DNA of 64,000 nucleotides from assembly GCA_902764415.1 (NCBI GenBank), contig CACWVU010000003.1, forward strand, positions 3,857 to 67,856, given 5' to 3'. The notes under the pieces were generated by a model. The model saw nothing but the letters and a program-made list of their open reading frames with translations, searched no databases and was not told the origin of the DNA. This stretch comes from an uncultured bacterium. Lineage in GTDB: Bacteria > Verrucomicrobiota > Kiritimatiellia > RFP12 > UBA1067. Position numbers and translations under genes: made by a program. Shown piece by piece: positions 8,570 through 63,172 of the stretch. Every line of letters starts with the position of its first letter. Position 1 is the first letter of the stretch.

Positions 8570-10740
8570 AAAACAGAAACAGAATCGCGCCTTTCCTGTG
8601 CGCCGCCTGGGGATCACTGGCGCTCTGCGCCTCGGCCGCGGAGGCGGTGGGATACTGCGCCTACGTCGACCCGTTCATCGGAACCGCCGGCACGGGCCAT
8701 ACATTTCCCTCCGCCTGCGTTCCCTTCGGCCTCGTCCAGGCCGGGCCCGACACGGGCAACGGAGACTGGGCGCACTGCTCCGGCTACAGCTACGAAGACA
8801 AGTCCATCTTCGGCTTCTCGCAGACCCATCTCAACGGCACTGGCTGTCCCGATCTCGGCGACGTGAGGATCCTTCCCTTTGCGGCGGAGTCCGTTCCCGG
8901 GTCGGTGGCCTACGACAAGGCGAGCGAGCGCGCGAAGCCCGGCTTCTACGCCGTCACGCTTGCCGGCGGCGTCAGGGTCGAGGCCTCCGCGACCGAGCGC
9001 TGCGCCATCTACCGCATTTCCTATCCGAAGGGCGCGAAGGGCCGTCTTCTCGTCGACCCCCACTGGTGCATAACGAGGCGCCAGCCCGCCTCCGACTGCA
9101 TCCGCTCCGTCGACGTCGCGCCTGACGGCAGGGCCGGCGTCTCGGGCAAGGTCGCCGTCAACAACTGGGTCGAGCGCACCTACGCCTTCAAGATGGAGTT
9201 CTCCCGGCCGTTCTTGTCGGAGAAGGATCTCGTCTTCGACTTCGGCGAGTCGTCGGGCGAACCGCTCGTGGTGAAGGTCGCGCTCTCCGCGCTGGGCGGC
9301 GTTTCCGACGCCGCGCGCAACCTCGCCGCGGAGATACCCGGCTGGGATTTCGACCGCGTCGCAGCTGCCGCGGACGCGAAGTGGTCGAAGATGCTCTCCT
9401 GCGTGGCGGTCGAGGGCAGCGACGACCAGAAGCGCAACTTCTACACCTCCCTCTACCACCTCTTCATCCAGCCGAACAACATTGCCGATGCCGGCCACAA
9501 GCCCTTCTACTCCACGCTTTCCACCTGGGACACCTTCCGCGCGGCGCATCCGCTCTACACGATCCTCGTTCCCGAGAAGGCGGCGGAATTCGTCGACTCG
9601 ATGCTGGAGCAGGGCCGTCGCACGGGGTATCTTCCGATCTGGACCTTGTGGGGTCGGGACAACCAGTGCATGATCGGCACACATTCCATTCCCGTCATCG
9701 TCGATTGGTTCTTGAAGGATTACTTTAGCCGCAAAGAACGCAAAGAGCACAAAGACTTTGCGGATTCTGCGTCCTTTGCGGCTAAAAAACAATACTGGCT
9801 TGCCGCGTATGAGCAGATCAAGGAGACGCTCACGAAGCGGCACGAGGGGCGCTACAAGGAGCGCTGGGATCTTCTCGACCGGCACGGATACTATCCGTAC
9901 GACGTGATCAGGAACGAATCGGTCTCGCGCACGCTTGAATGCGCCTACGACGACTGGTGCGCGGCGCAGATGGCCGCGAAGCTCGGACACGAGGAGGACG
10001 CGGAGTTCTTCCGCCGCCGGTCGGAGAACTGGCGGAACGTCTTCGATCCGTCGCTCGGACTCATGCGCAGCAAGGACTCGAAAGGCAACTGGCGCGATCC
10101 GTTCGATCCTTCCGCAGTCGGCTACGGCGAAGGCTACGACTTCACCGAGGGGAACTCGTACCAGTACACCTGGCACGTCATGCAGAACCCCGACGGCCTC
10201 GTAGCGGCGATGGGCGGACGCGAGGCGTTCGTGAAGCGGCTTGACTGGCTTTTCGAGCGGCCCGAGGTGGTGAAGGGCGAGGTTTTCGACGTCACGGGGC
10301 TCATCGGGCAGTACGTCCACGGCAACGAGCCGAGCCACCACGTCATCTACTTCTACACGCTTGTCGGCGAGCGCGACAAGGCCGCGCGCAGGGTCCGCGA
10401 CGTGTTCGACAGGTTCTACCTCCCAAAGCCGGACGGGCTCTGCGGCAACGACGACTGCGGACAGATGAGCGCCTGGTACGTCTTTTCGGCGCTCGGGTTC
10501 TATCCGTTCAACCCCTGCGGCGGCACGTACGTCCTCGGCGCGCCGCAGATTCCGAAGGCGACGATAGAGCTTGCGGGCTGCAAGACCCTGACCGTCGTCG
10601 CCAACAACCTCTCCGTCGAGAACAGGTACGTGAAGTCGGTCACGTTCAACGGCAAGCCGCTCGACAAGACGATCGAGCACGCCGACCTCATGTCCGGCGG
10701 CGAGCTCGTCTTTGAAATGACGAACGCCGCGCGAAGATGA
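8566..10740 (+). CDS. GH92 family alpha-mannosidase (secreted), carrying an in-frame palindromic insert
   Basis: ATG 8566 overlaps the upstream TGA (ATGA). Signal MKNRNRIAPFLCAAWGSLALCASAAEA. GH92 hallmarks are YVDPFIGTAGTGHTFPSACVPFGLVQAGPDT, GYLPIWTLWG, GNEPSHHVIYFY and GLCGNDDCGQMSAWYVFSALGFYP. Confidence 0.92.
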   Translation: MKNRNRIAPFLCAAWGSLALCASAAEAVGYCAYVDPFIGTAGTGHTFPSACVPFGLVQAGPDTGNGDWAHCSGYSYEDKSIFGFSQTHLNGTGCPDLGDVRILPFAAESVPGSVAYDKASERAKPGFYAVTLAGGVRVEASATERCAIYRISYPKGAKGRLLVDPHWCITRRQPASDCIRSVDVAPDGRAGVSGKVAVNNWVERTYAFKMEFSRPFLSEKDLVFDFGESSGEPLVVKVALSALGGVSDAARNLAAEIPGWDFDRVAAAADAKWSKMLSCVAVEGSDDQKRNFYTSLYHLFIQPNNIADAGHKPFYSTLSTWDTFRAAHPLYTILVPEKAAEFVDSMLEQGRRTGYLPIWTLWGRDNQCMIGTHSIPVIVDWFLKDYFSRKERKEHKDFADSASFAAKKQYWLAAYEQIKETLTKRHEGRYKERWDLLDRHGYYPYDVIRNESVSRTLECAYDDWCAAQMAAKLGHEEDAEFFRRRSENWRNVFDPSLGLMRSKDSKGNWRDPFDPSAVGYGEGYDFTEGNSYQYTWHVMQNPDGLVAAMGGREAFVKRLDWLFERPEVVKGEVFDVTGLIGQYVHGNEPSHHVIYFYTLVGERDKAARRVRDVFDRFYLPKPDGLCGNDDCGQMSAWYVFSALGFYPFNPCGGTYVLGAPQIPKATIELAGCKTLTVVANNLSVENRYVKSVTFNGKPLDKTIEHADLMSGGELVFEMTNAARR
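9724..9786 (+). repeat. 63-nt palindromic mini-element inserted in frame in the GH92 CDS
   Basis: A perfect 13-bp inverted repeat: tttagccgcaaag (9724-9736) and ctttgcggctaaa (9774-9786). The interior gccgcaaagaacgcaaagagcacaaag matches the reverse complement of the TTCTTTGnG module of elements A/B at 24 of 27 nt. It starts on a codon boundary, spans 21 codons, and translates FSRKERKEHKDFADSASFAAK. Confidence 0.8.
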
Positions 10741-20900: not shown

Positions 20901-22505
20901 GACGAGAACAAGCCAGTGCTTGAAGTCGAGGACGCTGAATACATAAACAGGCAGAATTCGGTTGCCTTTGACTACAACAACACTACCAACGGCTTGCTGA
21001 TCCGCCTTCTTGGTAGGCACCCGCGCGTCTCATCCCCGAACTTCAATCTGGCCCGTGCCTCCGGCGGCTGCATCGAGTTTGTCGTCCCGGCGGGTGGCTA
21101 TGCGGATGCGCCAATCCATTTCCTCTCGAACGGCGAGTTCAACTCGGCCAAGAATGCGCCGATCCGGCTTAGAGTCTCGCCTGACTCGCCGGCGCTTAAG
21201 GCCGGGTTTGCCACGACGACGCGCCTTGTGGATGCGAAGCTCGTCGTCGTGTCCGAGGAGTCCGCGGCGGTTTCGTTCGAGCTGCCGTCGGGCGTGACGA
21301 CGTCGCGCCACACCAACGAGGACGGCCACGAGGAGGGCTATGACTGCTCGATTCCCGCGGGGACCGGGCCGACGCTCTCCGATGTCAGGGTCGTCGCGTG
21401 CGGCGACGCCTCCTTCACGGTCAACGGCACGGTGGCCACGCACAACGACGAGGCTGCCACCATCAGGGCCTACGTTGCCGCGGACGGTGGCGACTTCGCG
21501 GCAAAGGGCGCCGCGGTTGCCGCCGCCGGACAGTTTGCCGTCAAGGCCAAGAACCTGACGGCCGGAACCAGGTATCGCTGGTATATCGAGGCCACGACGG
21601 CCTCCGGCTCGCACTGCACCGAGGCGCAGGAGCTGACGTTCCGTCCCGGCAAGGCGTCCGTTGCGTCGGCGAGCGAGGAGCCGATTCTGGTGGGCGGCGA
21701 AAAGGTCTATGTCTTCACCAATTCCACCGAGGCCGGCTCGATCACCTTCGCGCAGGGCGGCCTCGTCGAGGTGCTGGTCATCGGCGGCGGCGGCGCGGGC
21801 GGCAACGCCATGGGCGGCGGCGGCGGCGCGGGCGCGTTCCTGCACCGCTACGACTTCATCCCGGCCGGCACCTACGAGGTGACCGTCGGCAAGGGCGGCT
21901 ACAACACCGGCAACAACCAGGGCAGCGATGCGGTTCCGGCGGAGGCCTCTTCGATCGGCGACGTCTTCGTGGCGCCGGGCGGCGGCGCGGGCGGACGCTG
22001 GGGCGCGCAGGGCAAGGTGCAGGGCGGCAGCGCCGGCGGCAACAGCGGCAACGCCAATGTTCCGGCGGTCGGCATCGGCATCTATCCGCTCGGCCGCGAC
22101 GGCGGCTCGCAGACAACCGGCAACGCGTATATCGGCGCGGGCGGCGGCGGCGCAGGCAGCGCGGGACATGACTCCCGGACATGGGGCGGCATTTACTACG
22201 GCGGGCGCGGCGGCGACGGCGTCGCCTGCGACATCACCGGCGTGAGCGTCGTCTACGCGGCCGGCGGCGGCGGCGGCGCGGGCACGGTGGGCTACATCCC
22301 CGGCTCGGCGGGACTGGGCGGCGTCCGCGGCTGCGGCAGAAGCGACACAGAAATCTTCAACGCGCCCGACAACACCGGCTCCGGCGGCGGCGGCGGCAGC
22401 TATCAGACAGGCACGTACCAAATGGGCGGCGCGGGCGGCAGCGGCATCGTCGTCATCCGTGTCAAGGAGTTCTTCCGGCCCGGTACGGTGTACTACATCC
22501 GGTAG
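11913..22505 (+). CDS. giant secreted DUF2341/LamG/Fn3-like/glycine-rich-domain protein (3,530 aa)
   Basis: Sec signal MKVSKLLSVVVAAASTLFVALSARA. Three DUF2341-type modules (..NFPVLVRL..ESLVWVSVP..) are each followed by a LamG-type jelly roll ending (G)Y(L/M)DE(A/V)RIRN..EY. Five Fn3-like units end in TATNN/TVTNN. A PA14-like stretch lies at ~14.7-15.1 kb. There are two NSTYTW(V/I)GGA.G.WND..(N/K)WE units and two glycine-rich domains. It is an uninterrupted ORF with high G/C-ending codon use. Confidence 0.9.
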   Translation: MKVSKLLSVVVAAASTLFVALSARAEFTCELSFLQAPSTALANFPVLVRLAEDAPTGFSYADCPTASCIWFTDANDDAIPCDVDTWDDEGESLVWVSVPSLSSSATIKMHWDAAGAPAGLPASSQVWSLANYVGVWHMNELVYDSTKEKHYTPDSSASGWNAYKVTQSDAVPAPVTTATGVTANPTPLTGTAMNIAYGAGKDNAAFGGFAVPMAQTSSFTLGGSGFTLSAIVNSQQVANDGRCRVIAFGAAYNEMANLSIGCDNIYVMGGTNHLKANPRGQTDWVYSAGVFNSPRSKIYADGVCLSGSNEGNPSLASLSLTKGIGLGCFIDGKNTLDGYLDEARIRNVASTGEWVAEEYKTVTTANYVSFGEVETGVEVLRLGPVAVSDVTPTNAVVTGELRTLGEGATSADVWLVYTDGGATTNRIALGPKSGEPSALSVTLENLAEKTTYTCWFTATNNLSAGADSATASFKTKRIPTGTGIYECELSFPSAPATPLENFPVLVRLANDAPEGFLYEDCPTAAHLWFTDGYDTVLPFEADTWNTAGESLVWVSVPSFSSATKITMHWSSDADSVEDSPDAREVWTRAGYNAVWHFSGSAAESVNGLNASVTKGSPTYDGNASYPGPLGKTLWLANNSALGYAVDPAWTTLGANASLTISCLARPVTASLGGYARMVCCQTSWEVKHGYTFAVHSPISKITLGSSDSSELALNSGTGNWSGWPSTDWVHLTARYDNTAGAIFKDGQTAISGAIKTLATPEGVLYLGANGDGNQRFWVGGLDEIRIRAAASSDDWVAAEYATMATANYVSFGDVEEAAAGVSLEFGTPSVSSVSATGAIISARLKSLGENATSANLWVVVSGFGQTRTYPLVPATGPKVVEATLSGLQPGADWTAYLTATNNASPAVGTNSAAVVFSTDSDAGGLGGVGLYQAVTTSSAIPADAAANWDIAASGIVTLGPLAMRCALSSGTHQWQATDGSSYQWSNNTGFGYAGCMYMEAGKDYYFGGAIDDAGCVWVDDGVAGWDAKRTASQLGGYQSWNKAGPYTVAKTGFRRVVFSCWNGGGGAGAESGGSVTSEQAALRYAAVANGAAAPGKDDASWLPAVDPGDGSLFRLSVGVLRGVSVLSAVRDGTLLSARVAVDAAAPGEISKLRYVFGATHGGFNPADWEGGSLVVSSLPATAATNDYIVGIAADTRYVRFYIDDDGAIGWSATISLDWAGETTIADDFLFIGDPEVLSVGADKATVSAVLNAPGDGATAAQAWFVVTGGGETFTVPAGTATSRTNLTVEVTGLVPETEYSIWCTATNNAAEPAGADTPAATFTTGPKFSGWTPGQTAFKQNGKSFSATVPILNLGVGTTTLYLMTGPGNGNVPNISATKVVTGTGEQTITADFSALPWGTKYYYGLMMVSGTAEEAVTNGPFTASGEIFSNKSFELQDNSTYTWVGGATGVWNDAGNWERTAAGSNATTLYAGYPVYGSTAVFATNVQVTVTIPATEGTTTVSGGVPSWSVSNVNLTNMDAPLVFTPGPQGQTSIFYIVGSIVASRTSNRLVFDNCLCQLPKLQDTGANAYNAENGGNLVVTITGGSEASFSSIEPNYPGVKLRIEDGSLVKSGTICGGSGNTSYPAVIEIEDAELRSTGYIQPDYRGIGGTVFRFLGRNPKLLSSYYATKNSDTPSAFEFVVPAGGYFTPPLHFYGDSILASGGSKAILLRVSADSPALATGVGTTTRFVNAKIAAGSSTARVDFDLPTGVTTSTYTDANGNADGYVVTIPAGDGPALSDVALAYAGNGSFDVAGSVDPGSAGSATVKVYLAEGEGDFAAAATTNVTAAGAFRLRVSGLTDGTAYRWYAEAVSASGSHATEPESVTFQSGIASVSAATVEPHPVLNGDTVYTFTDSTAPGSITFSQGGLVEVLVVGGGGAGGNSAGGGGGGGAFLHRRAFVPAGTYAVTVGKGGYNATVANNVLPVDAESSALGALFVAAGGGAGGCWDIPSGTSLGGSAGGNSDKVGTPTTSGMYPFGHDGGVVPVFGNKFFAAGGGGAGGVGGDGRIWNNVYIGGYGGDGVACDITGESVVYAAGGGGGAGTAGFISGAAGLGGVPGCGPAEQVRVQDAPANTGAGGGGGNFGSNYLKQGGAGGSGIVVVRVLSGADDGTDALDVKTLTADVVGDSATISGSLLNLGAGATSANVWLVVTGGGETRSIDLGTTNAVPAAFTYTVEGLDYGTAYTFYFTATNNFGVGAGEASGAASAATPGNELYYSEISFPTAPATPLENFPVLLRISSTSPVGFSYANCPTADKLWVLDDTGAVLPFEVDTWNPEGESLLWVSVPNFSADTTLTLQWAVDGHSRPAVPAATEVWSRANYVGVWHMNELLTDGTGTYTPDATVNGWKAYKANEADAFPLADTVSSYAASTPPTGRAMISQLGDDTFTTGGFLVPASLTSETTIGPFSISIFEAYVQPYNNKYSSLVSFASAYNTLASMRIKLDTCWIYNGGSNPSFSLTADGQAYSAWRHLGGVWDAVPYGYLNGEARYLNQKNWDVSKTLSNGIGLGTLTGHTETQQGYMDEVRIRNAASSADWMAAEYATVMDHGYAVFEDAEIDTGAPRVGKPAIVEASGTSATLAATVVKLGDNATEADIWLVLEGGTKTLTYPVGKATAPLQSFTNTVTGLANSTVYTAYFTVTNNAEPAASSDSKTVSFETETLPANWNTGSFALSGSGKSLTTSIDVTDLGTGTTTLYLMTGPGWNSENIVSATSVLTNTGVHSFTLDYPDMPWGKSVYVSFLLVNGTEQNAITNGPYTANGQAFYNKYVTFQDNSTYTWIGGAAGDWNDPTKWELTTKGSAAGETPAGYPVYGSTAYFKTNIAVTVAIPATAGTSVSGGTPCWYVGSLNMSNMSAPLTFVSTSIADECRIQAGGISADNANLDVTFDGCYFNTGSAPHIGANATVDGRNTVLTFKNGARGYFNQLWVDKPAAKVRVLSGSLLEDGYLLCGTNVAGDENKPVLEVEDAEYINRQNSVAFDYNNTTNGLLIRLLGRHPRVSSPNFNLARASGGCIEFVVPAGGYADAPIHFLSNGEFNSAKNAPIRLRVSPDSPALKAGFATTTRLVDAKLVVVSEESAAVSFELPSGVTTSRHTNEDGHEEGYDCSIPAGTGPTLSDVRVVACGDASFTVNGTVATHNDEAATIRAYVAADGGDFAAKGAAVAAAGQFAVKAKNLTAGTRYRWYIEATTASGSHCTEAQELTFRPGKASVASASEEPILVGGEKVYVFTNSTEAGSITFAQGGLVEVLVIGGGGAGGNAMGGGGGAGAFLHRYDFIPAGTYEVTVGKGGYNTGNNQGSDAVPAEASSIGDVFVAPGGGAGGRWGAQGKVQGGSAGGNSGNANVPAVGIGIYPLGRDGGSQTTGNAYIGAGGGGAGSAGHDSRTWGGIYYGGRGGDGVACDITGVSVVYAAGGGGGAGTVGYIPGSAGLGGVRGCGRSDTEIFNAPDNTGSGGGGGSYQTGTYQMGGAGGSGIVVIRVKEFFRPGTVYYIR
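11988..13000 (+). other. DUF2341 + LamG module 1 of the 3,530-aa protein
   Basis: FTCELSFLQAPSTALANFPVLVRLAEDAP..GESLVWVSVPSL..IKMHW, then GVWHMNE...GYLDEARIRNVASTGEWVAEEYKTV. Confidence 0.7.
13365..14322 (+). other. DUF2341 + LamG module 2
   Basis: YECELSFPSAPATPLENFPVLVRLANDAP..GESLVWVSVPSF..ITMHW, then AVWHFSG...GGLDEIRIRAAASSDDWVAAEYATM. Confidence 0.7.
17634..18355 (+). other. glycine-rich domain 1 (phage-tail-fibre-like 'glycine-rich domain' family)
   Basis: GGLVEVLVVGGGGAGGNSAGGGGGGGAFLHRRAFVPAGTYAVTVGKGGYN ... AAGGGGGAG ... NTGAGGGGGN ... GGAGGSGIVVVRV. Confidence 0.65.
18679..19670 (+). other. DUF2341 + LamG module 3
   Basis: YYSEISFPTAPATPLENFPVLLRISSTSP..GESLLWVSVPNF..LTLQW, then GVWHMNE...GYMDEVRIRNAASSADWMAAEYATV. 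Confidence 0.7.
21754..22470 (+). other. glycine-rich domain 2 (paralogue of 17634-18355)
   Basis: GGLVEVLVIGGGGAGGNAMGGGGGAGAFLHRYDFIPAGTYEVTVGKGGYN ... NTGSGGGGGS ... GGAGGSGIVVIRV. It is collinear with domain 1. Confidence 0.65.
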
Positions 22506-22522
22506 GCGGGCATACGCCCGCC
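22505..22522 (+). terminator. GC-rich stem-loop immediately after the stop of the 3,530-aa gene (possible terminator, no U-tract)
   Basis: ggcgggc-atac-gcccgcc gives a 7-bp stem and 4-nt loop, overlapping the last base of TAG 22503-22505. No T-run follows. Confidence 0.3.
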
Positions 22523-22608
22523 GAAGGGACGGAAGGGACAAAAGGGACAGAAGGGACAAACATGACCAGCCAGTCGCTTAAGTCGCTTTTGTCGCTCTCG
22601 TCCCTTGA
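22522..22608. repeat. hairpin built from two phased 9-mer arrays (4 x nnAAGGGAC / 4 x GTCsCTnnn)
   Basis: The left array is cgaagggac ggaagggac aaaagggac agaagggac (22522-22557). A 15-nt loop follows. The right array is gtcgcttaa gtcgctttt gtcgctctc gtcccttga (22573-22608). The arms are imperfect reverse complements, with a recurrent central mismatch per unit. Confidence 0.8.
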
Positions 22609-22687
22609 ATGGGGCTCAAATGGGACCAAAGGGACAAACATGACCAGCCAGTCGCTTAAGTCGCTTTTGTCGCTCTCGTCCCTTGAA
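22551..22687. repeat. two exact 59-nt direct repeats (22551-22609 and 22629-22687, period 78 nt)
   Basis: aagggacaaacatgaccagccagtcgcttaagtcgcttttgtcgctctcgtcccttgaa occurs twice, identical by eye. The second copy ends 10 nt before ATG 22698. Confidence 0.85.
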
Positions 22688-22697
22688 GAGGTCCCCA

Positions 22698-23384
22698 ATG
22701 GCTGAAGTTCCGAAGATCGTTTTGCCGCATGGCGGCTACCGCAACCTCATCGTCTACCGCAAGAGCGACGTGATCTACCAGGGCACCGTCGCATTCTGCC
22801 GCCGCTTTCTGCCGGCGCGCGGCGACCGCACGGTCGACCAGATGACGCAGGCCGCGCGCTCCTGCAAGCAGAACATCGCCGAAGGGTCGGCGGCGAGCGG
22901 CACCTCGAAGGAGACGGAGATTAAGCTGACCAACGTCGCCCGGGCGACGCTTGACGAACTCCTCGAAGACTATCTCGACTACCTGAAGTCACATGGCGCC
23001 GGGGAATGGCCGGCCGCCAGCGAGAAGAAGGCGGCGGCGCGCGACTTCGCGAAGAGCCACGCCGACTGGGACGACTGGAAGCCGTTCTTCGAGTCGCGCT
23101 CGGCGGAGACGCTCTGCAATCTGATGATCGTCGTCATCCAGCAGACGAAATACCTGCTCGACAAGATGATTGCCGCGCAGGAAGAGGACTTCAAGCTGCA
23201 TGGCGGCGTCCGCGAGCGGATGCACGCGGCGCGAACCGCCGCGCGCGGCGAAGACTGGGACGGGGCGATCTATTCGCGGCTTGACGGCGCGGCGTCCGCC
23301 GAAGAGCTCGCCGCTCGCGCCGCCGAGATGCGCGAGCGCATATCCAAGGCAGTCTGGGGCATAAAGCAGCGGAAGGGCTGGTAG
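22698..23384 (+). CDS. four-helix-bundle protein ('23S rRNA intervening-sequence protein' family) with C-terminal suffix domain
   Basis: YRNLIVYRKSDVIYQGTVAFCRRF...QMTQAARSCKQNIAEGSAASGTSKETEIKLTNVARATLDELLEDYLDYL is the typical core of this family. ATG 22698 is preferred over the TTG at 22683, which lies inside the repeat. Confidence 0.8.
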   Translation: MAEVPKIVLPHGGYRNLIVYRKSDVIYQGTVAFCRRFLPARGDRTVDQMTQAARSCKQNIAEGSAASGTSKETEIKLTNVARATLDELLEDYLDYLKSHGAGEWPAASEKKAAARDFAKSHADWDDWKPFFESRSAETLCNLMIVVIQQTKYLLDKMIAAQEEDFKLHGGVRERMHAARTAARGEDWDGAIYSRLDGAASAEELAARAAEMRERISKAVWGIKQRKGW

Positions 23385-23386
23385 GC

Positions 23387-23558
23387 CAAAGGGACGGAAG
23401 GGACAGAAGGGACGAAAGGGACGGGCCAGGGCTTGGCGGTGCCTGGGCCGGGCTGCCCAGGGCTTGCGGGCCAGGGCCGGGCTGGCCAAGGCTTTGCAGG
23501 GCCGGGCTTGGCGGGCTTGGCGGTCGCTTAGGTCCCTTCTGTCGCTTTTGTCCCTTTT
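23387..23558. repeat. long hairpin: 4 x nnAAGGGAC array + ~100-nt GC-rich degenerate repeat loop + 4 x GTCsCTTnn array
   Basis: The left array is caaagggac ggaagggac agaagggac gaaagggac (23387-23422). The middle is made of gggcc(a/g)gggct(t/g)gc-type units. The right array is gtcgcttag gtcccttct gtcgctttt gtccctttt (23523-23558). It begins 2 nt after stop TAG 23382-23384. Confidence 0.8.
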
Positions 23559-23614
23559 CGCGGCGGTTTGCGTAAACCGAGCGGAAAATTTTGCGTAGAA
23601 TGGGCGGCGCGTCA

Positions 23615-23644
23615 TTGCCAACGCCATTGCCGTTGTGATATAAT
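23615..23644 (+). promoter_or_regulatory. sigma70-like promoter with extended -10, positioned for a leaderless transcript of the 23651 gene
   Basis: TTGCCA (23615-23620), an 18-nt spacer, then TGaTATAAT (23636-23644). Only 6 nt (atcgcc) separate the -10 from ATG 23651, and no Shine-Dalgarno is present. Confidence 0.4.
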
Positions 23645-23650
23645 ATCGCC

Positions 23651-26600
23651 ATGAAGATCAACTATCGCTTTTTCGCCTTGGCTTGCGCTGCCGCCTGCTG
23701 TCCGCTTGCGGGCTTTGCCGCGGCTGCGGCGGCCACGTTTTCGTTTGGCGAGGTCAAGGTCGACTGCGAGGAGCGCGACGGCTGGAAGCTTGCGTTTTCC
23801 CGCGAAGTCGCGCCTGATGGCGCGGAGATCGCGAAGATCGCGCTCGACTGCGCGGAGGCGAAGACGCCGCCGAAGACGCGGCTGTCGCTCGCCGTCCCGC
23901 AGGTCGGCATGGACTACGCCTGGAACGTCAACACTGGCGACTGCGGCATGCGCCCGAACTGGGGCGCGAACTCGAGCACCGAGGTCGCGCAGGGGATGCC
24001 GGTCTTCGTCTACTTCGACGGCAACGACACGAGCCATTTCTCCGTCGCGGCCGAGGAGTGCGTGCACCACCTCAACTACAAGGGCGGCGTCCGCGAGGAG
24101 GGGAGCCTCCTCGAGATCGGCATCGGCTGGTTCGAGACGCCCGAGGCCCCGATCTCGCACTACGAGACGCGCGTGAGGTTCGACGCGCGCGCGAGGGGAT
24201 TCGCCGACGCGGTGCGCGAGGCCGTCGCGTGGATCGAGCGGACGGCGGGCATCGCGCCGTGCCGCGTTCCCGCGTCCGCGTGCGACCCGCTCTACTCGAG
24301 CTGGTACTGCTTCCACCAGGACGTCCACGCCGCCGACATCGAGGCGGAGCTCGCGATCGCGGCGAAGCTCGGCATGAAGACGTTCATCCTCGACGACGGT
24401 TGGCAAATGGAGGATACGAGCCGCGGTTATGCGTTCTGCGGCGACTGGCAGGTGGCGCCGCGGCTTTTCCCGGACATGGCCGCGCACGTGAAGAGAGTGC
24501 AGGACATGGGGGTAAAGTACATGGTGTGGTACTCCGTCCCGTTCGTCGGGCAGAAGAGCGTGAACTACGAGCGGTTCAAGGGCAAGTACCTCTACGAGAA
24601 CCCCGGCATCGGCGCCGCCGTCCTCGACCCGCGCTTTCCGGAGGTGAGGCAGTTCCTCGTCGATACGTACGTGAAGGCGCTCAAGGACTGGAACATCGAC
24701 GGCTTCAAACTTGACTTTATTGATTCGTTCGCGATCTGGGGAGAGGATCCTGCCGCAAAGGAGAATTACGCAGGGCGCGACATCAAGTCGCTTCCGCTCG
24801 CGGTAGACGCCCTGATGACCGAGGTCAAGAACGCGCTTACGGCGATAAAGCCCGACATTCTCGTCGAGTTCCGCCAGAGCTACGTCGGACCCGCGATCAG
24901 GAAGTACGGCAACATGCTGCGCGTGGGCGACTGCCCCGGCAACCTCCGCCGCAACCGCTTCGCGATCGCGAACCTGCGCCTCGCGTCGGGCGGGACGGCG
25001 GTCCATTCCGACATGCTGGAGTGGAACTTCGCGGACAGCCCCGAGCACGCCGCGCTCTACGTGATCAACTCCATGTTCGGCGTCGTGCAGTATTCGGTCA
25101 TGCTCCGCGACGCGCCGAAGGAGCACCTCGCGATGGTGGAGAAGTGGATCAAGTTCTCGCAGGACCACCGCGACACTCTGCTCAACGGCAAGTTCACGCC
25201 GCGCCATCCCGAGCTCCAGTATCCCGTCATCGAGGCCGAGGGCGACGACGAGGTCGTCATCGGGCTCTACGACGACGGCCGCGTAGTGGACGTTCCCGAG
25301 GGGAAGAGGACGTTCGTGATGAACGCGTCGGGCAAGGACTCCTTCGTCGTCCGCCGCGGCGGAAAGCTCTCCGAAGTCGCCTGCAAGTCGGGCGACTGGA
25401 TCGAGTTCCGCGCGCCGCCGCCGCCCGAGACCGACTGGATGGCCGGCAAGATCGGCGCGTTTGTCCACTACTGGCCGGGCCTCGCCGGGCACGAGGCGAA
25501 GAAGTTCGACGTCGAGCAGCTGAAGCGCGACCTCGTCGCCGCGGGCGTGGACTACTTCTTCCTCACGCTCGGCCAGAACGCGGGGACGTACATCGCGCCC
25601 AACGAAACCTACGATCGCCTCACGGGCCACAAGCGCGGCGAGGCGACGGCGGCCTGCAATGGTCGCGACATTCCGCGTGAAGTCATCGAGGCGCTCAAGG
25701 GCACCGGCATCAAGTTCTGCCTCTACCTTCCCTGCCGCGGCCCCGGGCGCGCGCCGGAGGACTGCGAGAAGCTGGGCTACATCCCTTCGCGCGACGACCA
25801 CTCGGACTGCACCGACACGCCCGAGGGCCTCGAGAACTGGTGCAAGGTCATCGCGGAGTGGAGCGAGCGCTACGGCCGCGACGTCCACGCCTGGTGGTTC
25901 GACGGCGCGGGCGGCCCCGGCTTCGGCGGCGACCGCGAGACGCTGGCGATCCGCGCCGCCGCGCGCCGCGGCAATCCCGACGCGGTCTGCGCCTTTGCGA
26001 AGAAGATCGTCGACTACGACCACGGCTTCCGCTGGGTGCTGGGCATGGACCGCAAGGAGGGCCGCGAGCTCGATACGCTCTTCACCGACTACAACTGCCG
26101 CGGCGAGGCGAGGCACGACGTGTGGGCGGGATGCGACTTCACGGCCGGCGAGGCGACTAACCCGATGCGCCTTCCCTGCGACGGACGCGAGGTGCTTGGC
26201 CGCCAGTGGTTCACGCTCACCTACCTGGGCGGCATGTGGGGATGGACGGACGTCCGCCACACCGACAATGTCTGGTCTGACTGGATGAAGCGCGTCATTC
26301 CGCTCGGCGCGAGCGTCTGCTTCGACGTCGGCTTCGTCCACGAGGACGGCAGGATGTCGCCGGCGCAGGTCGCGCAGCTCAGGCGCATCGTCGCGCTCGC
26401 GCGCGGCAAACCTGACGCGGAGACCGCCGCGCGGCACGAGCGCGAGACGAAGGTCGTCAGCGCGCTCAGGGACGTCGAGCTGGCGTATGGACGCGGATGC
26501 GAGAATCCGCTCTGTCTTGAAGACAGGGACACGGGCGACGCCGAGATCCGCGCCGCGCTCGACAAGGACGGCGCGGTGTTCGTGAACGAGCGCGCGAAGG

Positions 26601-61925: not shown

Positions 61926-61926
61926 T

Positions 61927-61975
61927 GTTCGTGGTTCGTGGCTCGTGGTTCGTGATTCGCGGGCTGTGGATTGTG
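61927..61975. repeat. seven exactly phased heptamers (consensus GyTCGTG) directly after the giant-gene stop codon
   Basis: gttcgtg gttcgtg gctcgtg gttcgtg attcgcg ggctgtg gattgtg. It starts 2 nt after TAG 61923-61925 and ends 21 nt before ackA ATG 61996. No inverted partner lies nearby. Confidence 0.8.
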
Positions 61976-61995: not shown

Positions 61996-63135
61996 ATGAA
62001 GCAGAAGGAAATCAGAAAGGTGCTGGTGGTGAACTCCGGTTCGAGTTCGCTCAAGTACCAGCTCTTCGACATGAAGTCCGAGACGCGCCTCGCCAAGGGG
62101 CTCGTCGAGCGCATCGGCTGCGGCGGCCCCAAGGACCACGCCGCGGCCTTGGCGCAGGTCGTCGCCGATCTCGGCGACGCCGCGAAGGGGATCGACGCCA
62201 TCGGCCACCGCATCCTCCACGGTGGTGAGGTGTTCACCGACTCCGCGCTGATGACCAAGGCGAACATGGCGAAGGCGAAGAAGCTCGTGAAGTTCGGCCC
62301 CCTGCACATGCCCGCCAACCTCGGCGGCATCGAGGCGTGCGAGAAGATCTTCAAGGGTGTCCCCAACGTCGGCGTCTTCGACACCGCCTTCCACATCGCG
62401 ACGATGCCCGACTGCGCCGGCATGTACGCGATCGACCCGAAGTACTACAAGAAGATGGGGATCCGCAAGTACGGCTTCCACGGAACCTCGCACAAGTTCA
62501 TCACCCAGGCGGCGGCGAAGTTCCTGAAGAAACCGGTCTCCAAGGTCAACCTCGTCACCTGCCACCTCGGCAACGGATCCTCGCTCGCGGCGATCAAGAA
62601 CGGCGGCGTCGTGGACACCTCGATGGGCCTCACCCCGCTCGCCGGCATGGTGATGGGCACCCGTTGCGGCGATATCGACGCGGCGGCTGTGCTCGCGATC
62701 ATGGAGGCTGAGAAGCGCACCCCCGCCGAGATGGACACCATCCTCAACAAGAAGTCGGGCCTCCTCGCGCTCGCCGGCTCCAGCGACTGCCGCGACATCT
62801 GCGCCAAGGCGGAGAAGGGCGACAAGGCGGCCGAGCTCGCGCTCGAGATGCTCGCCTACCGCGTGGCGCTCTACATCGGCGCCTACAACACCGTCATCGG
62901 CGGTGCCGACGCGATCGTGATGACCGGCGGCATCGGCGAGAACTCCAAGGAGGTGCGCGAGCGGATCATCCGCCGTCTCGGCGCGCTCGGGATCAAGCTC
63001 GACCCCAAGGCCAACCAGGTCCGCGGCGAGGTCAAGGTCATCTCCGCCAAGGGCTCCAAGATCCCGGTGGTGGTCATCCCCACCAACGAGGAGCTCATGA
63101 TCGCCAGGGATACGGTGAAGGTTCTAGGCGCCTAG
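61996..63135 (+). CDS. ackA: acetate kinase
   Basis: MKQKEIRKVLVVNSGSSSLKYQLFD, HRILHGG, FDTAFH, YGFHGTSH, ITCHLGNG-type (VTCHLGNGSS), TSMGLTPLAG..MGTRCGDID and MTGGIGENS. SD aggag lies 4 nt upstream of ATG 61996. Confidence 0.95.
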   Translation: MKQKEIRKVLVVNSGSSSLKYQLFDMKSETRLAKGLVERIGCGGPKDHAAALAQVVADLGDAAKGIDAIGHRILHGGEVFTDSALMTKANMAKAKKLVKFGPLHMPANLGGIEACEKIFKGVPNVGVFDTAFHIATMPDCAGMYAIDPKYYKKMGIRKYGFHGTSHKFITQAAAKFLKKPVSKVNLVTCHLGNGSSLAAIKNGGVVDTSMGLTPLAGMVMGTRCGDIDAAAVLAIMEAEKRTPAEMDTILNKKSGLLALAGSSDCRDICAKAEKGDKAAELALEMLAYRVALYIGAYNTVIGGADAIVMTGGIGENSKEVRERIIRRLGALGIKLDPKANQVRGEVKVISAKGSKIPVVVIPTNEELMIARDTVKVLGA

Positions 63136-63172
63136 AAACCTAGAATCCTAGAAATCTAGAAGTCTATAAAAA
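63123..63172. repeat. phased CTAG octamer array spanning the ackA stop codon
   Basis: ttctaggcg cctagaaa cctagaat cctagaaat ctagaagt ctataaaa. TAG triplets sit at 63125, 63133 (the ackA stop), 63141, 63149 and 63157, exactly 8 nt apart, so all three frames are hit. CTAG is palindromic, so the same holds on the minus strand. Confidence 0.85.

What the first reader, a model, noticed from the sequence alone, without database searches (positions are those of the whole stretch)
22522..23558. Four-helix-bundle ('IVS protein') gene bracketed by matching AAGGGAC / GTCsCTT 9-mer-array hairpins: an IVS-like cassette outside rRNA
Upstream (22522-22687) and downstream (23387-23558) of the gene lie hairpins built from the same phased nonamer words. 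The upstream one is partly duplicated as two exact 59-nt repeats. The left array at 22522-22557 could also pair with the right array at 23523-23558, enclosing the whole gene in a ~1-kb stem-loop. This protein family was first noted inside 23S rRNA intervening sequences, which are excised at flanking stems by RNase III. Here the same kind of gene sits in a stem-bounded cassette between two large protein genes. It may therefore be a mobile or processed unit.
Basis: partly seen in the sequence, partly recalled or inferred. Interest (0 to 1): 0.6.

Follow-up and report, generated by a model that had tools for sequence, protein, structure and literature searches.

The report
Repeat-armed hairpins bracket four-helix-bundle gene
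A small, well-conserved gene of the '23S rRNA intervening-sequence / Avd-like' family sits between two hairpins whose arms are tandem 9-base words; relatives of the gene in many other bacteria carry the same kind of bracket, which gives this long-orphan family a candidate nucleic-acid partner.

Summary
A 228-aa gene (22698-23384, four-helix bundle plus 'suffix' domain) lies between two hairpins whose arms are phased NNAAGGGAC / GTCsCTT nonamers. These are the only period-9 arrays in the 64 kb.

The bracket is typical of the gene family. Of 76 metagenomic homologues (40-82% identity), 53 have period 6-12 tandem arrays within 300 nt. That is a 12-fold enrichment over the rest of the same contigs. 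The words are specific to each protein clade, and half the loci show significant flank-to-flank symmetry.

The gene is under purifying selection (dN/dS 0.03-0.22). The arrays abut the start and stop codons so closely that they must lie in the transcript. They also vary between near-identical strains (one or two copies of a 78-nt unit).

The cassette is fixed within the species, but a syntenic relative lacks it. In other lineages it sits inside type I restriction-modification operons.

The closest known thing is the S23p-bearing 23S rRNA intervening sequence, whose stem also holds copy-variable tandem heptamers. RNase III processing and mobility are not shown. Gene-less AAGGGAC hairpins exist in several phyla.

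Two tools (genome search, the fetch from genomes) were closed, so the window's own genome could not be surveyed.

The parts
22506..22521 (+). Small GC hairpin GCGGGC-ATAC-GCCCGC, directly after the stop (22503-22505) of the 3,530-aa gene. Its 3' half (CCGCCG) can also extend the outer long-range stem by pairing with CGGCGG at 23563-23568.
   Evidence: Sequence; folds.
22522..22557 (+). Array A1: four phased nonamers NNAAGGGAC. It is the 5' arm of the upstream hairpin and has four G3 tracts with 6-nt spacers.
22573..22606 (+). Array B1: four phased nonamers (GTCGCTT x2, GTCGCTC, GTCCCTT). It is the 3' arm of the upstream hairpin, with a 15-nt loop at 22558-22572, and is 79% complementary to A1. 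There is a G.G mismatch in the middle of three of the four words.
   Evidence: I4; dG -55.4, z -7.0.
22617..22694 (+). Second copy of a 78-nt tandem unit (first copy 22539-22616). It holds two + words (one degenerate), the loop and arm B1' (22651-22684). The exact 59-nt copies are 22551-22609 and 22629-22687. The unit is absent in some near-identical strains.
   Evidence: The single-copy form is in contig L223 and in a contig of run X12.
22685..22691 (+). Shine-Dalgarno-like GAAGAGG, 6 nt before the ATG and directly after the last repeat word. This leaves no room for a promoter between the arrays and the ORF.
   Evidence: Sequence; no sigma-70-like site in 22505-22698.
22698..23384 (+). Four-helix-bundle 'suffix domain' gene, 228 aa (PF05635/TIGR02436 N-terminal bundle plus TIGR04258 suffix). 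It is under purifying selection.
   Evidence: AF2 model has pLDDT 89.9 and is all-helical. Best fold matches are 2gsc and 2rld. dN/dS is 0.03-0.22. About 8,000 or more homologues.
23387..23422 (+). Array A2: four phased nonamers NNAAGGGAC, starting 3 nt after the stop codon. It is the 5' arm of the downstream hairpin.
23423..23522 (+). GC-rich loop of the downstream hairpin, with its own internal repeats (GGGCCGGGCTG..., GGGCTTGGCGG). It is replaced or shortened in related strains.
   Evidence: D5, D8, D9. Runs X12, X6 and X25 have 39, 82 and 80 other letters here.
23523..23556 (+). Array B2: GTCGCTT, GTCCCTT, GTCGCTT, GTCCCTT. It is the 3' arm of the downstream hairpin and also the best partner of A1 (24/25 over 22533-22557 / 23532-23556).
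   Evidence: I1, I6, I7; z -5.6.

Best explanation
This is one copy of a widespread two-part module. The first part is a conserved PF05635-superfamily gene (four-helix bundle plus TIGR04258 suffix). The second part is its own flanking stem-loops, whose arms are tandem arrays of a short word. Here the word is a 9-mer with the core GGGAC/GTCsC.

The module has the anatomy of the S23p-bearing intervening sequence of 23S rRNA, but it sits between two protein genes.

Most likely mechanism (inferred): the arrays are transcribed with the gene as its immediate 5' and 3' untranslated regions. They fold either into two local hairpins or into one nested stem that encloses the ORF. This double-stranded RNA is a processing and insulating element, cut by RNase III as in rRNA IVSs and in phage polycistronic mRNAs. 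Processing would separate the cassette transcript from the read-through transcript of the upstream giant gene and cap the ends of the cleaved RNAs with stem structures.

The tandem-word build lets the arms pair in several registers. It also makes them expand, contract and re-homogenise by slippage, which explains the strain-to-strain length variation.

The protein's own role is unknown. As an Avd/S23p-like oligomer it may bind these arrays.

Shown: the association, the architecture, the hypervariability, selection on the ORF, and the fact that the arrays must be in the mRNA.

Inferred: RNase III cleavage, insulation, and any protein-array contact.
For: 1. Family-wide association. 53 of 76 homologous loci have a period 6-12 array within 300 nt of the gene. 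The density is 2.62 per kb there, against 0.22 per kb elsewhere in the same contigs. 34 of 68 loci have flank-to-flank similarity at z >= 4: 27 inverted and 27 direct.
2. Words differ by protein clade: AAGGGAC, ACGGGAC, GACCTTAAA, CCTAGGAAAG, GGCTTAGAAA, TCCGAGTGC, TCGGAAGATT. They are kept across hosts of 36-65% GC.
3. Position. Where arrays are present, upstream ones end as close as 10-40 nt to the start codon and many downstream ones begin 0-2 nt after the stop. In the window there are 13 nt between the last word and the ATG and no promoter. In L121/L122 a TGGTATAAT box precedes the 5' array. The arrays therefore lie in the mRNA.
4. The stems are long enough for RNase III, with 25-34-bp arms, and very stable: z -7.0 and -5.6, and the outer stem is -62 kcal/mol.
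5. Published precedent. The Coxiella IVS has a 28-bp terminal stem, an S23p ORF, and tandem GACAGAT heptamers of variable copy number before the start codon. RNase III cuts it in the stem (PMC4990558).
6. Variation between near-identical strains is confined to the arrays and loops.
7. The ORF has dN/dS of 0.03-0.22.
8. Metatranscriptome contigs cover the gene and the arrays.
9. Inverted pairing is specific to this word. 26 of 130 AAGGGAC arrays in genome contigs have an inverted partner array, against 0 of 348 for three permuted words in viral contigs.
Against: - There is no direct RNA evidence. Only assembled contigs of RNA runs were served, at depths like those of the neighbouring genes, so DNA carry-over cannot be excluded and RNA ends cannot be mapped.
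- Arm mismatches show no wobble signature on the sense strand: 123 G.U against 128 A.C.
- In this locus most word pairs carry a G.G mismatch (GGGAC opposite GTCGC). This weakens the duplex and the model does not explain it.
- Roughly a third of homologues have no arrays, so the bracket is not obligatory.
- Some flank pairs are direct, not inverted.
- The same window has single tandem-word arrays abutting other stop codons with no such gene. Part of the array phenomenon is therefore genome-wide.
- The RNase III model does not explain why the arms are tandem words.
Confidence: 0.42

Rival explanations
1. Protein-array system. The four-helix-bundle protein is a sequence-specific nucleic-acid-binding oligomer, and the arrays are its cognate binding sites (about one word per subunit). 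Binding could serve autoregulation. It could also act on the gene-less hairpins of the same word scattered in the genome.
For: - Word type follows protein clade across hosts with very different GC content.
- Gene-less AAGGGAC hairpins occur in several copies per genome in Planctomycetota, Acidobacteriota, Verrucomicrobiota, Victivallales and Parachlamydiaceae.
- The purine array is the 5' arm in 14 of 15 hairpins, and the first upstream array is purine-rich on the sense strand 19 times against 5 pyrimidine-rich. Pairing energy alone does not explain either bias.
- Relatives (Avd, Xcc0516) are toroidal pentamers. Avd works with an RNA and a reverse transcriptase.
Against: - The clade-word correlation can equally come from vertical descent of the whole cassette.
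- The protein is not markedly basic (pI 8.4).
- Only 3 of 120 AAGGGAC loci hold the gene within about 8 kb.
- Roughly a third of homologues have no arrays.
Confidence: 0.22
2. DNA-level mobile or recombining cassette. The inverted arrays act as terminal repeats, either for a trans-acting recombinase or through hairpin/cruciform-mediated recombination. The gene is cargo or helper, and the gene-less hairpins are MITE-like derivatives.
For: - A syntenic relative (giant gene, GH gene, GFO gene; 83-85% nt identity) has 31 nt where the window has the 1.05-kb unit.
- Only 45 of 3,003 locus pairs share a neighbour homologue.
- The gene sits between hsdM, hsdS and hsdR genes in about 10 loci, and next to cas genes in others.
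- An identical protein occurs with two different left flanks.
- Contigs carrying the family are typically short, as expected of repeats.
Against: - The cassette is fixed at the same site in all 23 contigs with the identical protein and in the three runs holding related strains. The same holds for all 20 contigs of the P0051 locus.
- No excision or inversion joints were seen.
- There is no transposase or integrase next to it, and no target-site duplication.
- Copies share only the word arrays, not the loops or the ends.
- There is one hit in 72,556 plasmid records and none in 50,697 phage records.
- The L121/L122 breakpoint lies at a repeated promoter module, not at the arrays.
Confidence: 0.15
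3. The arrays are slippage-prone simple repeats, possibly G-quadruplex-forming, that accumulate in gene-end spacers of these genomes. As A-tract / GC-stem / T-tract hairpins they act as partial, bidirectional transcription terminators. Their link to this gene is secondary.
For: - Other tandem-word arrays abut stop codons in the same window: (TTCGTGG)x7 at 61926 and (CTAGAANN)x5 at 63127. The relative L221 has one at 9778.
- The hairpins sit 0-21 nt behind gene ends. None of the 7 classifiable ones lies between divergent genes.
- The order of purine 5' arm and T-rich 3' arm resembles an intrinsic terminator on either strand.
- Each + array here is G3N6 x4. G-rich heptamer arrays in Xanthomonas form G4 structures and occur as 70 inverted pairs (PMC4692102).
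Against: - A 12-fold enrichment at this family and clade-specific words are not expected of a generic spacer feature.
- If the upstream hairpin terminated efficiently, a gene under purifying selection would be left without a promoter.
- Many clades use words with only GG and with no T-tract.
- The terminator scan finds none at these hairpins.
Confidence: 0.15

Closest known systems
S23p-type intervening sequences (IVS) of 23S rRNA (Coxiella burnetii, Leptospira, Brucella, Xanthomonas; PMC4990558)
   Same: An ORF of the same superfamily lies in the loop of a stem formed by terminal inverted repeats. Short tandem repeats (heptamers in Coxiella) sit directly before the start codon and vary in copy number between strains. 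The unit is compact, about 0.4-1 kb. It tolerates being inside a host transcript.
   Different: This cassette is not in rRNA; it lies between a giant surface-protein gene and a glycosidase gene. The protein carries the extra TIGR04258 suffix domain (228 aa against about 120). Both arms are whole arrays of nonamers. There are two hairpins rather than one, with the nested stem as an alternative fold. The ORF is under purifying selection, whereas the Coxiella ORF is decaying. RNase III cleavage is shown for the IVS and is untested here.
G-rich heptamer simple-sequence repeats of Xanthomonas (GGGAATC) and Nostoc (GGGGAYT) (Rehm et al. 2015, PMC4692102)
   Same: These are intergenic tandem arrays of a short G3-containing word. 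In Xanthomonas they often occur as convergent inverted pairs that can form stem-loops. Their length varies between relatives while their position is conserved. They have G-quadruplex potential.
   Different: They are heptamers, present at hundreds of sites per genome, and that paper reports no link to a gene family. Here the arrays are nonamers tied to one gene family, and many clades use words without G3.
REP/BIME elements with their RAYT gene (REPtrons)
   Same: A gene is flanked by inverted copies of a short repeat that is also scattered, without the gene, in intergenic spacers near gene ends.
   Different: RAYT is an HUH tyrosine transposase with a known DNA-cleaving chemistry. The four-helix-bundle protein has no catalytic motif known to me. 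REPs are single imperfect palindromes, not tandem-word arrays.
Avd, the accessory variability determinant of diversity-generating retroelements (PDB 4DWL; PMC10053308)
   Same: It has a related four-helix-bundle fold and family (CDD cd16375 / PF05635-like). It is an oligomeric nucleic-acid-associated accessory protein.
   Different: No reverse transcriptase or template/variable repeat pair was noted at this locus. No suffix domain is described for Avd. Avd genes are not known to be bracketed by word arrays.

Membership tests
Four-helix-bundle suffix-domain proteins (TIGR04258 with TIGR02436; PF05635 superfamily) | The sequence matches the family models above their curated cut-offs. | tested here: met
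   TIGR04258 scores 64.5 bits (cut-off 40) over residues 136-183. TIGR02436 scores 30.4 bits (cut-off 24) over residues 19-89. PF05635 scores 29.4 bits, below its 33.8 cut-off.
Four-helix-bundle suffix-domain proteins (TIGR04258 with TIGR02436; PF05635 superfamily) | An all-helical bundle fold like the solved S23p-family structures. | tested here: met
   The AF2 model has pLDDT 89.9 and eight helices. The best Foldseek matches are 2gsc (Xcc0516; probability 1.0, target TM 0.7-0.8) and 2rld (BT_0352), although E-values are only 0.06-0.7. A profile search of PDB sequences also gives 2gsc first, at E 0.067.
23S rRNA intervening sequence (IVS) | Inserted in a helix of the 23S rRNA gene. | tested here: not met
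   No Rfam family, rRNA included, reaches its gathering score in the 64-kb window. The flanks are a 3,530-aa protein gene and a GH gene.
23S rRNA intervening sequence (IVS) | Terminal inverted repeats form a stable stem around an S23p-family ORF. | tested here: met
   The outer arms 22533-22557 / 23532-23556 are 24/25 complementary, with a duplex energy of -62.4 kcal/mol. The whole-cassette MFE uses this nested pairing.
23S rRNA intervening sequence (IVS) | Excised from the precursor RNA by RNase III. | not testable with these tools
   Only assembled contigs of RNA runs were served, so no read ends were available.
MITE / insertion-sequence-like mobile element | Terminal inverted repeats with target-site duplication, a transposase in cis or trans, and presence/absence polymorphism. 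| tested here: inconclusive
   The inverted arrays are present. No transposase is adjacent and none recurs next to the arrays. No target-site duplication was recognised. The cassette is fixed within the species. It is absent in one syntenic relative, but that junction is otherwise rearranged.
Diversity-generating retroelement (Avd component) | Reverse transcriptase and a template/variable repeat pair next to the Avd-like gene. | not tested
   The two genes that flank the cassette are a giant surface-protein gene and a GH gene, neither with a reverse-transcriptase domain. No reverse-transcriptase family is among the 25 commonest Pfam families of the 119 neighbour ORFs of homologues. The rest of the window was not scanned for a reverse transcriptase or for template/variable repeats.
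Known anti-phage defence or phage protein families | Match to a PADLOC or PHROGs model. | tested here: not met
   No family reaches E <= 0.01 in either library.

The most novel reading that the evidence does not exclude
PF05635-superfamily proteins and arrays of a cognate short word form a cross-phylum two-component system that has not been recognised. The oligomeric protein would read its own tandem words in hairpin DNA or RNA. The gene travels inside a hairpin built of those words. Gene-less hairpins of the same word are its scattered targets. The classical S23p-bearing rRNA intervening sequences are just the copies that landed in rRNA.
Probability: 0.25. Interest if true: 0.85.

Novelty: new variant of a known kind. 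Interest (0 to 1): 0.62.

Why it matters
It has had no assigned function since the IVS ORFs were first seen.

This family is systematically bracketed by hairpins made of clade-specific tandem words. That holds outside rRNA, inside restriction-modification operons and between ordinary genes. The link gives the family a concrete nucleic-acid partner to test, by binding assays, RNase III assays and RNA end mapping.

It also connects two unexplained features of bacterial genomes: rRNA intervening sequences and inverted short-tandem-repeat arrays. In addition, it explains recurrent assembly breaks and spurious N-terminal 'GSPGSP' extensions in annotated members.

I found no paper that makes this link. 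Earlier agents of this scan noted the same design in other genomes. It is therefore a recurring pattern rather than a one-off.

Tried and rejected
- **Rfam.** Nothing was found at gathering thresholds in the window. There were only chance-level hits in 22300-23800.
- **RNA processing.** Every RNA run found was served as contigs. They show the gene and arrays at about the depth of the neighbours and break at the repeats just as DNA contigs do. No conclusion is possible on ends or on excision.
- **Empty sites by exact-protein look-ups.** All contigs with the identical 4HB protein (23) and all with the right-hand neighbour of the P0051 locus (20) keep the cassette.
- **G.U against A.C mismatch asymmetry as a test for RNA-level selection.** No asymmetry was seen.
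- **'AAGGGAC is a specially favoured word'.** Rejected as stated. Three permuted words are as common or commoner as 3-unit nonamer arrays in viral contigs (41 against 108, >=119 and >=119 loci), mostly inside long open frames. About 45% of the genome hits for AAGGGAC also lie in long stop-free stretches. Only the inverted-pair arrangement is specific.
- **Integron attC, CRISPR and DGR readings.** No integrase, cas gene or reverse transcriptase is adjacent to the cassette here. The arrays have no unique spacers.
- **Recurrent partner gene next to gene-less AAGGGAC arrays.** None was found beyond small clusters.
- **PADLOC, PHROGs, plasmids and phages.** There were no hits, apart from one Prevotella nigrescens replicon.
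Full report
**What is there.**
- The 3,530-aa gene ends at 22505. A 1,198-aa glycosidase gene starts at 23651 and has its own strong promoter at 23615-23644.
- Between them lies one small gene, ATG 22698 to TAG 23384, 228 aa. It matches TIGR04258 ('four helix bundle suffix domain', 64.5 bits) and TIGR02436 (30.4 bits), and matches PF05635 weakly (29.4 bits, below its cut-off).
- An AlphaFold model built on 27 homologues is confident (pLDDT 89.9) and all-helical. Its best structural matches are the two solved S23p-family proteins, 2gsc and 2rld.

**The repeats.**
- AAGGGAC occurs 15 times in the window against 6.7 expected, and 13 of the 15 flank this gene.
- Upstream there are four phased NNAAGGGAC words (A1, 22522-22557), a 15-nt loop, and four reverse-complement words (B1, 22573-22606).
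- A 78-nt tandem duplication repeats the end of A1, the loop and B1. Its exact copies are 22551-22609 and 22629-22687.
- Downstream, starting 3 nt after the stop, come four more NNAAGGGAC words (A2, 23387-23422), a 100-nt GC-rich loop and four reverse-complement words (B2, 23523-23556).
- No other period-9 array exists in the 64 kb.
- Each hairpin folds much better than shuffled sequence, with z of -7.0 and -5.6.
A1 and B2 are 24/25 complementary over 25 nt, spacers included. The nested fold (A1:B2 at -62.4 plus B1:A2 at -48.2 kcal/mol) is nearly iso-energetic with the two local hairpins (-47.6 and -64.7). The MFE of the whole cassette uses the nested form.
- One oddity is unexplained. All ten + words are GGGAC. 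Ten of the fifteen reverse-complement words are GTCGC rather than GTCCC, which gives a G.G mismatch every 9 nt.

**Is the bracket a property of the gene family?** Yes.
Most are on short contigs from rumen and gut Kiritimatiellia and Victivallales.
- I fetched 80 metagenomic loci with homologues of 40-82% identity, plus loci of an identical-protein cluster.
- By TRF, 53 of 76 loci carry a period 6-12 tandem array within 300 nt of the gene. The density is 2.62 arrays per kb there and 0.22 per kb in the rest of the same contigs.
- In 34 of 68 loci the two flanks resemble each other far beyond shuffles. 27 are inverted and 27 direct; many words are themselves near-palindromic.
- The words differ but follow the protein tree:
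  - GGGAC-type nonamers in the clade that holds the window, across contigs of 36-65% GC
  - GACCTTAAA
  - TCCGAGTGC
  - GGCTTAGAAA (period 10)
  - CCTAGGAAAG (period 10)
  - TCGGAAGATT
  - ATAGGACTT
- Where arrays are present, upstream ones end as close as 10-40 nt to the start codon and many downstream ones begin 0-2 nt after the stop.
- Roughly a third of the homologues have no recognisable arrays. Some show only relics, for example L208.

**The ORF is functional and the arrays are in its transcript.**
- dN/dS between homologues is 0.03-0.22.
- In the window only 13 nt, holding a GAAGAGG ribosome-binding site, separate the last repeat word from the ATG. No sigma-70-like promoter lies between the upstream stop and the ATG.
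- In the P0051 lineage an extended -10 box (TGGTATAAT) lies upstream of the 5' array. Homology between two different genomic contexts begins about 35 nt before that box.
- The arrays are therefore the immediate 5' and 3' untranslated regions.
- Contigs from four metatranscriptomes cover the gene and arrays. Their depth is like that of the neighbours, and being contigs they say nothing about RNA ends.

**Dynamics.**
- The identical protein is on 23 or more contigs from many rumen samples, always at this site.
- Strains 95-98% identical (runs X6, X7 and X12) also keep it there.
- What varies is the repeat part. Contig L223 and a contig of run X12 have one copy of the 78-nt unit instead of two. 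The downstream loop is shortened or replaced in X12, X6 and X25. Two scaffolds have gaps exactly in the arrays.
- A more distant syntenic relative (L221: giant gene, GH gene 83% nt identical, GFO gene 85%) has only 31 nt between the giant gene and the GH gene. It has no homologue and no arrays there. The giant gene's 3' half also differs, so insertion and deletion cannot be told apart and no boundaries can be read.
- Across the family the neighbourhoods are unrelated: 45 of 3,003 locus pairs share a neighbour homologue.
- About ten loci have the gene wedged between hsdM, hsdS and hsdR of type I restriction-modification operons. Others are next to cas genes or housekeeping genes.
- There is almost nothing on plasmids (one Prevotella nigrescens 568-kb replicon, with CCTAGG-type words downstream) and nothing in phages.

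**Arrays without the gene.**
- A scan of one genome per species for three phased AAGGGAC words hit its 120-locus limit. Only three loci (Pirellulaceae, Roseibacillus and one more) hold the gene.
- Many loci are compact hairpins: AAGGGAC array, then a 20-50-nt loop, then a GTCCCTT array. They occur in Planctomycetota, Acidobacteriota, Verrucomicrobiota, Victivallales and Parachlamydiaceae, often several per genome.
- The purine array is the 5' arm in 14 of 15 hairpins. The hairpins sit 0-21 nt behind gene ends.
- A control tempers this. Three permuted words are at least as frequent as 3-unit nonamer arrays in viral contigs, mostly inside open frames, and about 45% of the AAGGGAC genome hits are also in long stop-free stretches. 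The word count alone therefore means little.
- The inverted-partner arrangement is specific: 26 of 130 for AAGGGAC against 0 of 348 for the permuted words.
- The window also has single tandem-word arrays abutting two other stop codons, and L221 has one as well. Tandem words at gene ends are therefore partly a general habit of these genomes.

**Comparison with what is known.**
- The Coxiella burnetii IVS is a 428-nt element in 23S rRNA helix 45. It has a 28-bp terminal stem, an S23p ORF in the loop, and two or three tandem GACAGAT heptamers just upstream of the start codon whose number differs between strains. RNase III cuts in the stem, at the first repeat (PMC4990558).
- This is the same anatomy as here, but the present cassette is outside rRNA. 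It carries the longer suffix-domain protein, has whole arrays as both arms, and is under purifying selection.
- Rehm et al. described G-rich heptamer arrays in Xanthomonas, 70 of them as inverted pairs, without linking them to any gene (PMC4692102).
- I found no paper that links PF05635-family genes to flanking tandem-word arrays.
- Notes of earlier agents in this scan describe the same design in other genomes. I treated these as leads. My own family survey reaches the same description independently. I saw none of the excision or flipping that one of those notes claims.

**Mechanism.**
- Best supported (confidence about 0.4): the arrays act in the RNA as long stems that insulate and process the cassette transcript, as in rRNA IVSs. 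The tandem-word build gives register-tolerant pairing and fast slippage-driven turnover.
- No RNA evidence could be obtained. The wobble test was neutral: 123 G.U against 128 A.C.
- The G.G mismatches, the 5'-purine chirality and the tandem nature itself are better explained if a protein, perhaps the encoded one, reads the words (rival, about 0.2).
- A DNA-level mobile element (about 0.15) and generic terminator or G4-prone simple repeats (about 0.15) remain possible. The four readings are not mutually exclusive.

**Verdict.** This is a clear, well-preserved member of an undescribed extension of the S23p-IVS design to protein-coding neighbourhoods. The association is solid; the mechanism is open.

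Noticed in passing
window 61926-61974 and 63127-63170: There are other tandem short-word arrays abutting stop codons, with no four-helix-bundle gene. (TTCGTGG)x7 starts 2 nt after the stop of the 10,451-aa gene. (CTAGAANN)x5-6 runs across the stop of the next gene. Both are single arrays without an inverted partner.
   Followed up: partly
window 23615-23651: A near-consensus promoter, TTGCCA-18 nt-TATAAT with a TG extension, ends only 6 nt before the ATG of the glycosidase gene. This suggests a leaderless or very short-leader mRNA. In the syntenic relative L221 the same gene has an ordinary GAGGAA ribosome-binding site and no promoter.
   Followed up: no
L152, L173, L159, L183, L205/L208, L150, L193 (metagenome loci): The suffix-domain four-helix-bundle gene sits inside type I restriction-modification operons: between hsdM and hsdS, or before hsdR. 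In L173, L159 and L183 it has word arrays filling the spacers up to the neighbouring genes' stop and start codons.
   Followed up: partly
L121 2173-2222 and 2785-2834; L122 2692-2742: A roughly 50-nt promoter-like module (TCTGTCGNTTCGGGA...AATGGTATAAT) is repeated upstream of two different genes in one contig. It marks the point where two otherwise different left flanks of the identical cassette become homologous.
   Followed up: partly
P0065 (homologue): The database protein has a 35-residue N-terminal extension ending in GSPGSPGSPGSRGSPG. This is the upstream nonamer array read in frame by the gene caller. It is a likely annotation artefact that recurs in longer 'members' of the family (255-294 aa entries).
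   Followed up: no
L221 9778-9818: A heptamer array (TCCTAAC/TCCTACC) overlaps the stop of the 475-aa FAD-oxidoreductase gene in the relative that lacks the cassette. This is another gene-end word array in this lineage.
   Followed up: no
L232 4640-4710 (Prevotella nigrescens NZ_CP082843.1, gene K8O81_RS09930): A cultured species carries a suffix-domain four-helix-bundle gene with CCTAGG-type 9-10-nt words just downstream and none recognisable upstream. It is a possible experimental model.
   Followed up: partly
viral contig loci L274-L580: Three-unit nonamer arrays of arbitrary purine-rich words are common in IMG/VR contigs (more than 100 loci per word). About 60-70% lie in long open frames, which is consistent with tripeptide-repeat coding. 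None has an inverted partner array.
   Followed up: partly
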